In this document: positions 8,580 through 60,039 of the stretch, piece after piece
Position numbering within the stretch: position 1 is the stretch's first letter
How the letters are laid out: each line of letters starts with the position of its first letter
Assembly (NCBI RefSeq): GCF_003334385.1
Contig: NZ_QOWN01000017.1
Length of the DNA: 64,000 nt
Source of the DNA: Escherichia coli
GTDB taxonomy: Bacteria; Pseudomonadota; Gammaproteobacteria; Enterobacterales; Enterobacteriaceae
Direction: 5' to 3' (one strand)
Translations under genes and position numbers: made by a program
The notes under the pieces: generated by a model
The model's input: the letters and a program-made list of their open reading frames with translations, nothing else
What the model was told of the DNA's origin: nothing
The model's database searches: none

Positions 8580-9521
8580 ATGCGCGAAAAGGATTATGTC
8601 GTAATTATAGGTTCGGCGAATATTGATGTCGCCGGATATTCACATGAATCATTAAATTATGCGGATTCAAATCCAGGTAAAATAAAATTTACGCCTGGTG
8701 GAGTAGGGCGCAATATTGCACAAAACCTGGCGTTGCTGGGTAACAAAGCCTGGCTACTGAGCGCCGTAGGCAGTGATTTTTATGGTCAATCGCTGCTAAC
8801 GCAAACCAATCAATCTGGCGTTTATGTCGATAAATGCCTGATTGTGCCGGGAGAAAATACGTCGAGTTATTTATCATTACTCGATAATACCGGTGAAATG
8901 CTGGTTGCTATAAATGACATGAATATTAGCAACGCTATTACAGCTGAATATCTCGCACAGCACGGTGAATTTATTCAGAGGGCAAAGGTCATTGTCGCGG
9001 ACTGTAATATCAGTGAAGAGGCACTGGCATGGATTCTGGATAATGCCGCCAACGTACCCGTATTTGTCGATCCGGTTTCGGCATGGAAATGTGTCAAAGT
9101 GCGCGACCGTCTAAATCAGATCCACACTCTCAAGCCAAACCGCCTTGAAGCGGAAACCCTGAGTGGGATTGCGCTGTCAGGGCGTGAAGATGTGGCAAAA
9201 GTTGCTGCCTGGTTCCATCAACATGGCCTGAACCGACTGGTATTGAGCATGGGCGGCGACGGCGTTTATTACAGCGATATCAGCGGTGAAAGTGGCTGGT
9301 CTGCGCCGATCAAAACCAATGTTATTAATGTTACCGGAGCGGGCGATGCCATGATGGCGGGACTTGCTTCGTGTTGGGTAGACGGAATGCCGTTTGCCGA
9401 ATCTGTTCGTTTCGCACAGGGATGTTCGTCAATGGCGCTCTCCTGTGAATACACCAATAACCCCGATTTATCGATTGCCAACGTTATATCGTTAGTGGAG
9501 AACGCAGAATGTCTGAATTAA
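8580..9521 (+). CDS. psuK: Pseudouridine kinase (PfkB family)
   Basis: 313-aa ORF; PfkB motifs (GGVGRN, TGAGDAM). Confidence 0.9.
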   Translation: MREKDYVVIIGSANIDVAGYSHESLNYADSNPGKIKFTPGGVGRNIAQNLALLGNKAWLLSAVGSDFYGQSLLTQTNQSGVYVDKCLIVPGENTSSYLSLLDNTGEMLVAINDMNISNAITAEYLAQHGEFIQRAKVIVADCNISEEALAWILDNAANVPVFVDPVSAWKCVKVRDRLNQIHTLKPNRLEAETLSGIALSGREDVAKVAAWFHQHGLNRLVLSMGGDGVYYSDISGESGWSAPIKTNVINVTGAGDAMMAGLASCWVDGMPFAESVRFAQGCSSMALSCEYTNNPDLSIANVISLVENAECLN

Positions 9522-10453
9522 AAATTTCCCCTGAATTATTACAAATTTCCCCGGAAGTGCAGGACGCTTTAAAAAACAAAAAACCGGTTGTGGCGCTGGA
9601 ATCGACCATTATTTCTCACGGGATGCCGTTCCCACAAAATGCCCAGACCGCAATTGAAGTTGAAGAAACTATTCGTAAACAGGGCGCTGTACCTGCCACG
9701 ATCGCCATTATTGGCGGCGTGATGAAAGTGGGGTTAAGCAAAGAAGAAATTGAATTACTGGGTCGTGAAGGGCATAACGTGACCAAAGTTAGTCGTCGCG
9801 ATTTACCTTTTGTTGTTGCCGCCGGAAAAAATGGCGCAACCACTGTGGCTTCAACGATGATTATTGCGGCGCTTGCCGGAATTAAAGTATTTGCCACCGG
9901 GGGAATTGGTGGTGTGCATCGCGGGGCGGAACATACCTTCGATATTTCTGCCGATTTGCAAGAACTGGCAAATACTAATGTCACCGTTGTTTGTGCCGGG
10001 GCGAAATCTATTCTCGATTTAGGATTAACCACTGAGTATTTAGAAACCTTCGGTGTGCCGTTAATTGGCTATCAGACTAAAGCGCTGCCTGCGTTTTTCT
10101 GCCGCACCAGCCCGTTTGACGTCAGCATTCGTCTCGACAGCGCCAGCGAAATTGCCCGTGCAATGGCGGTGAAATGGCAAAGCGGTCTGAACGGTGGCCT
10201 CGTGGTAGCGAACCCGATCCCGGAACAGTTTGCTATGCCGGAACACACTATCAATGCGGCGATCGATCAGGCGGTAGCTGAAGCTGAAGCTGAAGCTCAG
10301 GGAGTCATTGGTAAAGAAAGTACGCCATTCCTGCTGGCGCGCGTTGCTGAACTGACCGGCGGTGACAGCCTGAAATCCAACATCCAGCTGGTGTTCAACA
10401 ACGCCATTCTGGCGAGCGAAATTGCCAAAGAATATCAGCGTCTCGCGGGTTAA
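9509..10453 (+). CDS. psuG: Pseudouridine-5'-phosphate glycosidase
   Basis: 314-aa ORF; overlaps psuK by 13 nt; contains (GCTGAA)3 repeat encoding AEAEAEAQ. Confidence 0.9.
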   Translation: MSELKISPELLQISPEVQDALKNKKPVVALESTIISHGMPFPQNAQTAIEVEETIRKQGAVPATIAIIGGVMKVGLSKEEIELLGREGHNVTKVSRRDLPFVVAAGKNGATTVASTMIIAALAGIKVFATGGIGGVHRGAEHTFDISADLQELANTNVTVVCAGAKSILDLGLTTEYLETFGVPLIGYQTKALPAFFCRTSPFDVSIRLDSASEIARAMAVKWQSGLNGGLVVANPIPEQFAMPEHTINAAIDQAVAEAEAEAQGVIGKESTPFLLARVAELTGGDSLKSNIQLVFNNAILASEIAKEYQRLAG

Positions 10454-10546: not shown

Positions 10547-11797
10547 ATGGATATAATGAGAAGTGTTGTGGGGATGGTGGTGTTACTGGCAATAGCATTT
10601 CTGTTGTCAGTGAATAAAAAGAGCATCAGTTTGCGCACGGTTGGAGCCGCACTGCTGCTGCAAATCGCTATTGGTGGCATCATGCTCTACTTCCCACCGG
10701 GAAAATGGGCAGTAGAACAGGCGGCATTAGGCGTTCATAAAGTGATGTCTTACAGTGATGCCGGTAGCGCCTTCATTTTTGGTTCGCTGGTTGGGCCGAA
10801 AATGGATGTCCTGTTTGACGGTGCGGGTTTTATCTTCGCCTTTCGCGTACTTCCGGCGATTATTTTCGTTACTGCGCTCATCAGTCTGCTGTACTACATT
10901 GGCGTGATGGGGCTGCTGATTCGCATCCTTGGCAGCATTTTCCAGAAAGCCCTCAACATCAGCAAAATCGAATCTTTTGTTGCGGTTACTACTATTTTCC
11001 TCGGGCAAAATGAGATCCCGGCGATCGTTAAACCGTTTATCGATCGCATGAATCGCAACGAGTTGTTTACCGCAATTTGTCGCGGGATGGCGTCCATTGC
11101 TGGTTCGATGATGATTGGTTATGCCGGAATGGGCGTACCAATTGACTACCTGTTAGCGGCATCGCTGATGGCGATCCCTGGCGGGATTTTGTTTGCACGT
11201 ATTTTTAGCCCGGCAACCGAGCCTTCGCAGGTCACATTTGAAAATCTGTCGTTCAGCGAAACGCCGCCAAAAAGCTTTATCGAAGCGGCGGCGAGCGGTG
11301 CGATGACCGGGCTAAAAATCGCCGCTGGTGTGGCGACGGTGGTAATGGCGTTTGTCGCAATTATTGCGCTGATCAACGGCATTATCGGCGGAATTGGCGG
11401 CTGGTTTGGTTTCGCCAATGCCTCTCTGGAAAGTATTTTTGGCTATGTGCTGGCACCGCTGGCGTGGATCATGGGTGTGGACTGGAGTGATGCCAATCTT
11501 GCGGGTAGCCTGATTGGGCAGAAACTGGCGATTAACGAATTCGTCGCTTACCTGAGTTTCTCCCCATACCTGCAAACGGGCGGCACGCTGGAAGTGAAAA
11601 CCATTGCGATTATCTCCTTTGCGCTTTGTGGTTTTGCTAACTTTGGTTCTATCGGTGTTGTCGTTGGCGCATTTTCGGCTATTTCGCCAAAACGCGCGCC
11701 GGAAATCGCCCAGCTTGGTTTACGGGCGCTGGCAGCAGCAACGCTTTCCAACCTGATGAGTGCGACTATTGCCGGGTTCTTTATTGGTCTGGCGTAA
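10547..11797 (+). CDS. psuT: Concentrative nucleoside transporter (CNT family), putative pseudouridine transporter
   Basis: 416-aa polytopic ORF; paralogue of nupX in the same window. Confidence 0.9.
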   Translation: MDIMRSVVGMVVLLAIAFLLSVNKKSISLRTVGAALLLQIAIGGIMLYFPPGKWAVEQAALGVHKVMSYSDAGSAFIFGSLVGPKMDVLFDGAGFIFAFRVLPAIIFVTALISLLYYIGVMGLLIRILGSIFQKALNISKIESFVAVTTIFLGQNEIPAIVKPFIDRMNRNELFTAICRGMASIAGSMMIGYAGMGVPIDYLLAASLMAIPGGILFARIFSPATEPSQVTFENLSFSETPPKSFIEAAASGAMTGLKIAAGVATVVMAFVAIIALINGIIGGIGGWFGFANASLESIFGYVLAPLAWIMGVDWSDANLAGSLIGQKLAINEFVAYLSFSPYLQTGGTLEVKTIAIISFALCGFANFGSIGVVVGAFSAISPKRAPEIAQLGLRALAAATLSNLMSATIAGFFIGLA

Positions 11798-59850: not shown

Positions 59851-60039
59851 TTATTCCTCATCTTCATCTTCATCTGCTGGTGCAATAACGTCATATCCTG
59901 CCTTTTCTGCAATAAACAGGAATGTTGAAAGAGTTCCTACAAGTTCATCGTCATGAACATGGCGAATGAATATTACTTTCCCGTTTTTGATGGTCAGCAA
60001 TATTCTGGTTTGTTCGTGTTCTGCTGTTTTCTGATGCAT
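59851..60039 (-). CDS. Small phage protein with acidic tail (62 aa; ...APADEDEDEE)
   Basis: SD GGGAGA; stop 6 nt before next start. Confidence 0.5.
   Translation of the reverse strand: MHQKTAEHEQTRILLTIKNGKVIFIRHVHDDELVGTLSTFLFIAEKAGYDVIAPADEDEDEE

What the first reader, a model, noticed from the sequence alone, without database searches (positions are those of the whole stretch)
10277..10300. Hexanucleotide repeat (GCTGAA)3 inside psuG encoding an Ala-Glu repeat
gctgaagctgaagctgaagct encodes AEAEAEA. The ORF here is 314 aa, whereas I recall K-12 PsuG as 312 aa, which would fit one extra 6-nt unit. This is a slipped-strand in-frame length polymorphism in a probable surface loop.
Basis: partly seen in the sequence, partly recalled or inferred. 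Interest (0 to 1): 0.3.

Follow-up and report, generated by a model that had tools for sequence, protein, structure and literature searches.

The report
Variable Ala-Glu repeat in psuG
A six-base repeat inside the E. coli pseudouridine-recycling gene psuG gains and loses whole units between strains, changing an exposed helix tip by two amino acids at a time; it is a real but ordinary copying-slippage polymorphism.

Summary
Window 10277..10297 is (GCTGAA)3GCT and encodes AEAEAEA, residues 257-263 of a 314-aa PsuG (CDS 9509..10453). K-12 and the crystallised E. coli enzyme (4GIJ) have AEAEA and 312 aa.

The refutation condition is not met, because repeat number varies. Among 5,404 complete E. 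coli genomes with psuG, 5 assemblies carry 3 units, 25 carry 1 unit, none carries 4, and the rest carry 2. In a 15-billion-protein collection, exact 0-, 1-, 2-, 3- and 4-unit versions of this protein all exist.

The changes are recurrent. The 3-unit state sits on at least 3 psuG nucleotide haplotypes, and 1 unit sits on at least 3. All 30 length variants in complete genomes lie on backgrounds with a perfect 15-16-nt tract. None lies on the about 3,100 genomes with shorter or imperfect tracts. This fits replication slippage.

"Surface loop" needs refining. The repeat forms the C-terminal end of helix α11 and the α11-α12 turn. By homology to the Arabidopsis enzyme, that is the tip of the mobile active-site lid, nine residues before the conserved Thr272. 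Across 37 diverse homologues this spot is length-conserved and none has the +2 state.

No functional effect is shown. Interest is low.

The parts
9509..10453 (+). psuG (yeiN) coding sequence for pseudouridine-5'-phosphate glycosidase, 314 aa including the 3-unit repeat allele
   Evidence: ORF list. Matches PDB 4GIJ E. coli PsuG at E = 6e-197 over the full length. Identical CDS annotated psuG, WP_087894452.1, in RefSeq genomes.
10276..10297 (+). Perfect period-6 tract A(GCTGAA)3GCT. Codons 10277..10297 encode AEAEAEA, residues 257-263. This is the slippage-prone element.
   Evidence: Alleles differing only by whole 6-nt units.
10241..10291 (+). Coding segment for helix 245-261, equivalent to α11 of AtPUMY, the first arm of the lid hairpin. 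The repeat forms its C-terminal end.
   Evidence: AlphaFold2/DSSP. Alignment to 8K05. Description of the lid in PMC10761123.
10292..10309 (+). Coding segment for the α11-α12 turn, residues 262-267 (EAQGVI). It is 6 residues here and 4 in the 2-unit allele, and has the lowest model confidence in the protein core.
   Evidence: pLDDT of block 261-270 is 71 in the 3-unit model and 86 in the 2-unit model.
10310..10354 (+). Coding segment for helix 268-282, equivalent to α12, the second arm of the lid. It contains Thr272 (codon 10322..10324), the equivalent of AtPUMY Thr289.
   Evidence: T272 and P273 nearly invariant. The T289A mutant is reported inactive in PMC10761123.
8580..9521 (+). psuK (pseudouridine kinase). 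It overlaps the psuG start by 13 nt and is operon context only.
10547..11797 (+). psuT (NupC/NupG-family nucleoside transporter), operon context only.

Best explanation
The tract is a short coding microsatellite in psuG. Replication slippage between adjacent GCTGAA units occasionally adds or removes one 6-nt unit. Because the unit is two codons (Ala-Glu), every change keeps the reading frame and only alters the protein by two residues. The window carries the rare expanded 3-unit state of a locus whose common state is 2 units. The extra Ala-Glu lies at the end of helix α11 and in the α11-α12 turn, at the solvent-exposed tip of the active-site lid. There it is most likely tolerated as a neutral or slightly deleterious variant.

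Shown: the repeat, the allelic series, its recurrence on independent haplotypes, its restriction to perfect-tract backgrounds, and the structural location. Inferred: slippage as the molecular mechanism, and near-neutrality.
For: Allelic series in complete genomes:
- Among 5,404 complete E. coli genomes with psuG, 5 assemblies (4 strains) have 3 units.
- 25 genomes have 1 unit and none has 4.

Wider data:
- Exact-sequence look-up finds the same protein with 0 units (308 aa, 3 contigs), 1 unit (at least 1000 contigs), 2 units (at least 1000), 3 units (63 contigs) and 4 units (316 aa, 1 contig). A 5-unit version is absent.
- The index lists the 3-unit protein in 138 blocks of the collection.
- DNA of the 4-unit and 0-unit alleles confirms gain or loss of whole GCTGAA units.

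Recurrence:
- 3 units occur on three different psuG nucleotide haplotypes: the window type, the L029 type and the L033 type.
- The L029 type is identical in its SNP pattern to the 4-unit allele.
- 1 unit occurs on the window type, the O55:H7 type and the OkiPb01695 type. 0 units occurs on a further haplotype.
- 1-unit and 3-unit alleles with no SNPs between them in psuG exist.
- Over 20 kb, the 3-unit allele sits on at least four flanking haplotype groups that differ by 60-360 SNPs.

Dependence on the tract:
- All 30 variant genomes are on backgrounds with a perfect 15-16-nt tract (GCTGAAGCTGAAGC[T/G]), about 2,254 genomes.
- No variants occur among about 1,809 genomes with GCCGAAGCCGAAGAG, a 13-nt tract.
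- No variants occur among about 1,292 genomes with the imperfect GCTGAAGCCGAAGAA.

Structure:
- Two AlphaFold2 models place the extra residues in the turn after helix 245-261.
Against: No mutation rate was measured, so slippage is inferred from pattern alone. Part of the spread of identical 3-unit alleles over different flanks could be recombination rather than new mutation.

Near-neutrality is not shown. The length at this spot is the same in 34 of 37 diverse homologues and none has +2, which hints at constraint. The 3-unit allele is rare, about 0.1% of complete genomes. Two variant-length alleles sit in IS-disrupted psuG genes.

Genome counts are not phylogenetically independent, so the contrast of 30 against 0 overstates the statistical support. 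AlphaFold2 is poorly sensitive to small indels.
Confidence: 0.85

Rival explanations
1. The length variants are functional tuning of the active-site lid. Changing the α11-α12 tip by two residues alters opening and closing, and so kcat or Km for pseudouridine-5'-phosphate. Selection then maintains different lengths in different lineages.
For: The repeat lies in the hairpin that PMC10761123 describes as a lid whose closure is needed for catalysis. It ends nine residues before the conserved Thr272, and the equivalent T289A mutant is reported inactive. The 1-unit allele is fairly common, at least 1000 contigs.
Against: Variants are rare in complete genomes, 0.1% for 3 units and 0.5% for 1 unit, and are scattered over unrelated backgrounds without any visible ecological pattern. 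Family-wide length conservation points to purifying rather than diversifying selection. The models place the change in the turn and leave the helices unchanged. No kinetic data exist.
Confidence: 0.07
2. The extra unit is a sequencing or assembly artefact of the window's source genome.
For: Short repeats can be miscalled by some long-read assemblers. The window's exact source was not found among RefSeq complete genomes.
Against: The identical 314-aa protein is on record from 63 contigs and 138 index blocks, from NCBI, ENA and Logan assemblies made by different groups. It also occurs in complete genomes from Viet Nam and from swine. A clean ±6-nt change that preserves the frame is not a typical error mode.
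Confidence: 0.01
3. The variant was imported by recombination from a divergent psuG allele or another species, not generated in place.
For: psuG is visibly mosaic in E. coli. Over 112 nt around the repeat, B-like and B2-like alleles are only 81-83% identical to K-12. The 3-unit allele sits on several flanking haplotypes.
Against: The window allele has no SNPs against the common 2-unit and 1-unit alleles of its own haplotype across the whole gene, apart from the 6-nt unit. No enterobacterial or distant homologue examined has a longer segment here that could serve as a donor. Three distinct nucleotide haplotypes each carry their own 3-unit derivative.
Confidence: 0.05
4. It is a phase-variable contingency locus that switches psuG on and off.
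For: It is a simple-sequence repeat inside a coding region whose copy number changes recurrently.
Against: The unit is 6 nt, so every observed allele from 0 to 4 units keeps the frame and a full-length protein. The unit number is very low. No frameshifted repeat alleles were seen.
Confidence: 0.01

Closest known systems
Coding microsatellites / in-frame VNTRs generated by slipped-strand mispairing, such as the hexanucleotide loci used in E. coli MLVA typing
   Same: It is a perfect tandem hexanucleotide tract. Alleles differ by whole units with identical flanks. The changes recur (homoplasy), are restricted to perfect-tract backgrounds, and preserve the frame.
   Different: The unit number is very low (modal 2, range 0-4), so variability is low: about 0.6% of complete genomes are non-modal. 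It is not, as far as the searchable literature shows, a described typing locus.
E. coli K-12 PsuG/YeiN, PDB 4GIJ
   Same: It is the same enzyme, identical apart from V220A and the extra Ala-Glu. All catalytic residues are present.
   Different: The α11-α12 tip is two residues longer (AEAEAEA against AEAEA).
Arabidopsis PUMY lid (α11/α12), PDB 8K05-8K07
   Same: It has the homologous helical hairpin. The conserved Thr (At T289, here T272) and Asn (At N308, here N291) are present.
   Different: AtPUMY has the standard tip length (TEAREQ), as in the 2-unit allele. Lid motion has not been examined for any E. coli length variant.
Phase-variable contingency loci, such as tetranucleotide repeats in Haemophilus or Neisseria genes
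   Same: Both involve repeat-mediated, recurrent length change within a coding sequence.
   Different: There is no frameshift and therefore no on/off switching. The tract is far shorter and the apparent rate far lower.

Membership tests
PsuG / pseudouridine-5'-phosphate glycosidase (Pfam PF04227, Indigoidine_A) | Full-length sequence homology to characterised PsuG enzymes | tested here: met
   E = 6e-197 to E. coli PsuG 4GIJ, 1e-83 to AtPUMY 8K05 and 2e-55 to TM1464 1VKM. Homologues carry PF04227.
PsuG / pseudouridine-5'-phosphate glycosidase (Pfam PF04227, Indigoidine_A) | Catalytic and ligand residues named for EcPUMY and AtPUMY: Glu31, Thr130, Lys166, the Mn2+ ligand Asp149, Asn289 (K-12 numbering) and the lid Thr | tested here: met
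   E31, K93 and D149 are invariant. T130, H137, K166, T272 and N291 (window numbering) are nearly invariant and present in the window protein. Their roles are taken from PMC10761123.
PsuG / pseudouridine-5'-phosphate glycosidase (Pfam PF04227, Indigoidine_A) | Operon context psuK-psuG-psuT | tested here: met
   ORFs at 8580..9521, 9509..10453 and 10547..11797. The same order is annotated in RefSeq genomes.
PsuG / pseudouridine-5'-phosphate glycosidase (Pfam PF04227, Indigoidine_A) | Enzymatic cleavage of the pseudouridine-5'-phosphate C-C glycosidic bond by the 314-aa variant | not testable with these tools
   This needs an enzyme assay. Only the 312-aa K-12 protein has been characterised.
Slipped-strand coding microsatellite (in-frame VNTR) | Perfect head-to-tail repeat beyond chance | tested here: met
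   A 22-nt perfect period-6 tract. None was seen in 100 shuffles or in 200 simulations.
Slipped-strand coding microsatellite (in-frame VNTR) | Alleles differ by integer numbers of units with otherwise identical flanks | tested here: met
   0-, 1-, 2-, 3- and 4-unit alleles exist. There are no SNPs across psuG between 1-unit and 3-unit alleles.
Slipped-strand coding microsatellite (in-frame VNTR) | Independent recurrence of the same length change | tested here: met
   3 units on 3 psuG nucleotide haplotypes and 1 unit on 3.
Slipped-strand coding microsatellite (in-frame VNTR) | Variation depends on tract length and perfection | tested here: met
   30 variants among about 2,254 genomes with 15-16-nt perfect tracts, against 0 of about 1,809 (13-nt tract) and 0 of about 1,292 (imperfect tract). 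The counts are not corrected for phylogeny.
Slipped-strand coding microsatellite (in-frame VNTR) | Raised ±1-unit mutation rate measured directly, RecA-independent and sensitive to mismatch repair | not testable with these tools
   This requires mutation-accumulation or amplicon sequencing experiments.
Phase-variable contingency locus | Repeat changes shift the reading frame or promoter spacing and so switch expression | tested here: not met
   The unit is 6 nt. All observed alleles encode full-length proteins of 308-316 aa.

The most novel reading that the evidence does not exclude
The natural 0- to 4-unit series is a ladder of active-site lid lengths that measurably changes PsuG/YeiN catalysis, for example substrate release or the synthesis direction used to make pseudouridine-5'-phosphate. 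The repeat would then act as a simple evolvable tuning knob on a metabolic enzyme rather than as neutral noise.
Probability: 0.06. Interest if true: 0.4.

Novelty: new member of a known kind. Interest (0 to 1): 0.15.

Why it matters
It matters little for genome biology. It is a textbook case of slippage at a short coding repeat, and it is useful mainly as a clean, well-documented example: a full 0-4 allelic series, independent recurrences, and absence on imperfect-tract backgrounds.

There are two modest practical points. First, psuG length differences of 308, 310, 312, 314 and 316 aa in annotations are real alleles, not errors. Second, PsuG/YeiN is used as a biocatalyst for making pseudouridine nucleotides (PMC7722734 and PMC10116470, listed). 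The variants form a ready-made natural series of lid-tip lengths that could be assayed.

Tried and rejected
- Megablast with the 118-nt query matched only 2,275 of 5,426 genomes, because divergent alleles lack a 28-nt exact word. I replaced it with blastn at word size 11, which matched 5,403-5,404 genomes.
- Identity bands cannot separate a 6-nt gap from SNPs when the background is divergent. I therefore built separate synthetic 1-unit and 3-unit queries for the B-like and B2-like backgrounds. All four returned no variants.
- I first took the window to be one of the five complete-genome 3-unit assemblies. The 20-kb comparison rejects this. The window is 6 SNPs from MG1655 and 118-138 from those strains. 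The closest 3-unit draft contigs differ by 8-13 SNPs.
- The 90%-clustered homologue search could not resolve alleles. The exact-sequence look-up did.
- Literature searches for psuG with "tandem repeat", and for yeiN with VNTR or MLVA, listed no paper linking the gene to a repeat polymorphism. One search attempt failed for lack of a slot. Subscription-journal papers are not covered.
- I considered and rejected phase variation, an assembly artefact and horizontal import (see the rival explanations).
- I did not use fold search or the metagenome and genome collection scans, because the exact-protein look-up already answered the distribution question.

Full report
**Observation.** The window reads GCT GAA GCT GAA GCT GAA GCT at 10277..10297, followed by CAG at 10298..10300. 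Tandem Repeats Finder reports a period-6 array at 10276..10297, 3.7 copies, 100% matches. A 21-nt exact pattern search finds only this site, with none expected in 100 dinucleotide-preserving shuffles. My own scan shows it is the only perfect period-6 tract of 21 nt or more in the 64-kb window. None appeared in 200 first-order Markov simulations. The tract is in frame in ORF 9509..10453 (+), 314 aa, and encodes AEAEAEA at residues 257-263.

**Gene identity.** The protein matches the crystallised E. coli pseudouridine-5'-phosphate glycosidase (4GIJ, 4GIK, 4GIL, 4GIM) at E = 6e-197 over its whole length. The only differences are one substitution (A220 here, V220 in K-12) and one 2-residue gap at the repeat, AEAEAEA against AEAEA. 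MG1655 psuG is annotated as 939 nt, 312 aa. The neighbours are psuK (8580..9521, overlapping the psuG start) and psuT (10547..11797), as in annotated genomes.

**Census in complete genomes.** I ran short queries spanning the repeat against 5,426 complete RefSeq E. coli genomes with blastn.
- The 3-unit query is matched without a gap in only 5 assemblies. These are four strains: three human isolates from Thai Binh, Viet Nam, one of them deposited twice, and one swine isolate.
- A synthetic 4-unit query has no gap-free match.
- A 1-unit query is matched gap-free in 25 genomes, including O55:H7 strains.
- All other genomes have the 2-unit length.

The stated refutation condition, that all alleles carry the same repeat number, is not met.

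**Wider data.** An exact-sequence look-up in a collection of about 15 billion proteins was run on the window's amino-acid background.
- The 0-unit version (308 aa) is on 3 contigs.
- The 1-unit version (310 aa) is on at least 1000 contigs.
- The 2-unit version is on at least 1000 contigs.
- The 3-unit version, which is the window protein, is on 63 contigs.
- The 4-unit version (316 aa; EFJ2950141.1) is on 1 contig.
- The 5-unit version is not on record.

The index lists the 3-unit protein in 138 blocks of the collection. The DNA of the 4-unit allele reads (GCTGAA)4GCG, and the 0-unit alleles read GTA GCG CAG. These are clean gains and losses of whole units.

**Recurrence.** An alignment of psuG DNA from 25 alleles has 80 SNP columns.
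- The 3-unit state occurs on three distinct nucleotide haplotypes: the window (K-12-like) type, the L029 type and the L033 type.
- The L029 haplotype is identical in its SNP pattern to that of the 4-unit allele. This suggests stepwise growth on that background.
- The 1-unit state occurs on the window type, the O55:H7 type (2 SNPs from the O157:H7 2-unit allele) and the OkiPb01695 type.
- The 0-unit state is on yet another haplotype.
- Within the window haplotype, 1-unit and 3-unit alleles differ by no SNPs across the gene.

Over 20 kb of flanking sequence, the 3-unit allele lies on at least four haplotype groups separated by 60-360 SNPs. The window itself is 6 SNPs from MG1655 and 118-138 SNPs from the complete-genome 3-unit strains. 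Its source is therefore not among those genomes.

**Dependence on the tract.** E. coli has several allele classes at this spot.
- GCTGAAGCTGAAGC[T/G] gives a 15-16-nt perfect tract. This is the K-12-like and O157-like class, about 2,254 genomes by the identity bands.
- GCCGAAGCCGAAGAG gives a 13-nt tract. This is the B-like class, about 1,809 genomes.
- GCTGAAGCCGAAGAA is imperfect. This is the B2-like class, about 1,292 genomes.

All 30 length-variant genomes belong to the first class. Synthetic 1-unit and 3-unit queries on the B-like background and on the B2-like background found none. This is the pattern expected if tract length and perfection set the slippage rate. The caveat is that genomes are not independent samples.

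**Structural location.** AlphaFold2 with a 38-sequence alignment (mean pLDDT 94.3) gives helix 245-261, turn 262-267 and helix 268-282 for the 3-unit protein. The 2-unit protein gives helix 245-261, turn 262-265 and helix 266-280. In the models the repeat therefore supplies the last turns of the first helix, and the extra Ala-Glu lengthens the turn from four to six residues. Local confidence drops from 86 to 71.

Alignment to Arabidopsis PUMY (8K05) places AEAEAEA-Q opposite T276-E-A-(gap)-R-E-Q281. It places window T272 opposite At T289 and window N291 opposite At N308. The paper on that structure describes α11 and α12 as two antiparallel protruding helices that act as a lid closing on ligand binding. 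It reports the T289A mutant as inactive (PMC10761123). "Surface loop" is therefore roughly right about exposure, but it understates the context. The site is the tip of a functional mobile hairpin, and the repeat ends nine residues before a conserved lid threonine.

**Conservation.** In an alignment with 37 homologues of 45-98% identity, 34 have exactly the 2-unit length at this spot. Three are shorter by 2-3 residues, and none has the +2 length. Close enterobacterial relatives read KEAEE or AEAEQ. The 3-unit state is thus an unusual, derived length for the family. Together with its rarity, this fits a neutral-to-slightly-deleterious, transient variant better than an adaptive one. No functional data bear on this.

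**Mechanism and rivals.** The best explanation is replication slippage at a short coding microsatellite, producing in-frame ±Ala-Glu changes that are tolerated at a helix tip (confidence about 0.85).
- Adaptive lid tuning cannot be excluded, but nothing supports it beyond the location.
- An assembly artefact is excluded by the many independent records.
- Import by recombination is unlikely, because each haplotype carries its own derivative and no donor with a longer segment was seen.
- Phase variation is excluded, because the unit is two codons.

**Novelty.** Searches of the open literature found no paper linking psuG or yeiN to a repeat polymorphism. The phenomenon itself is a well-known kind. 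I rate it a new member of a known kind, with low interest.

Noticed in passing
window 10220-10226 and 10238-10244: CCGGAAC direct repeats lie 18 nt apart, about 35 nt upstream of the AE repeat. E. coli PsuG alleles of 306 aa (P0010, P0013, P0017, P0020) lack exactly QFAMPE, that is one repeat copy plus the spacer. They do so on two different amino-acid backgrounds (PIPEHTIN and PIPEESIN). This suggests a second recurrent in-frame deletion site in the same gene.
   Followed up: partly
protein P0002 (E. coli PsuG, 326 aa), corresponding to window about 10187-10228: This allele carries a 14-residue tandem duplication in the segment GLNGGLVVANPIP, just upstream of the lid. It is another in-frame length variant.
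   Followed up: no
window 9517-9556: An imperfect 21-nt tandem duplication (1.9 copies, 89% matches) encodes ELKISPE/LLQISPE at the psuG N-terminus. It begins inside the 13-nt psuK-psuG overlap, where the psuK stop is at 9521 and the psuG start at 9509.
   Followed up: no
window about 10230-10347 (psuG 3' third) compared with L002, L003, L004: psuG is strongly mosaic within E. coli. B-like and B2-like alleles are only 81-83% identical to K-12 over 112 nt around the repeat, and one strain (CUPS04) is 74% identical. B-like alleles are nearly identical to K-12 in the 5' part of the gene. This suggests old recombination tracts.
   Followed up: partly
L005 (2017.01.04CC) and L001 (FDAARGOS_943): Two of the length-variant alleles sit in psuG genes truncated at the 5' side by insertion sequences. 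The 3-unit allele is truncated by IS1A and a 1-unit allele by an IS5-family element. Sister strains carry the same 3-unit allele intact.
   Followed up: partly
plasmid records H199-H204, for example NZ_CP033094.1 at 150119-151057: A psuK-psuG pair about 90% identical to the window gene is carried on large E. coli plasmids of 185-303 kb, some predicted conjugative. Several other 'plasmid' hits are records of 1.4-4.9 Mb and are probably mislabelled chromosomes.
   Followed up: no
window 11081, 11204, 12728, 13888: The window differs from MG1655 by only 6 SNPs in 20 kb. Four of these were private to the window among the seven sequences first compared. The source appears to be a K-12-like phylogroup A strain that is absent from RefSeq complete genomes. 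The closest 3-unit draft contigs differ by 8-13 SNPs.
   Followed up: partly
window 59858-59875: This is the only other perfect period-6 tract of 18 nt or more in the window, (TCATCT)3. It was not examined.
   Followed up: no
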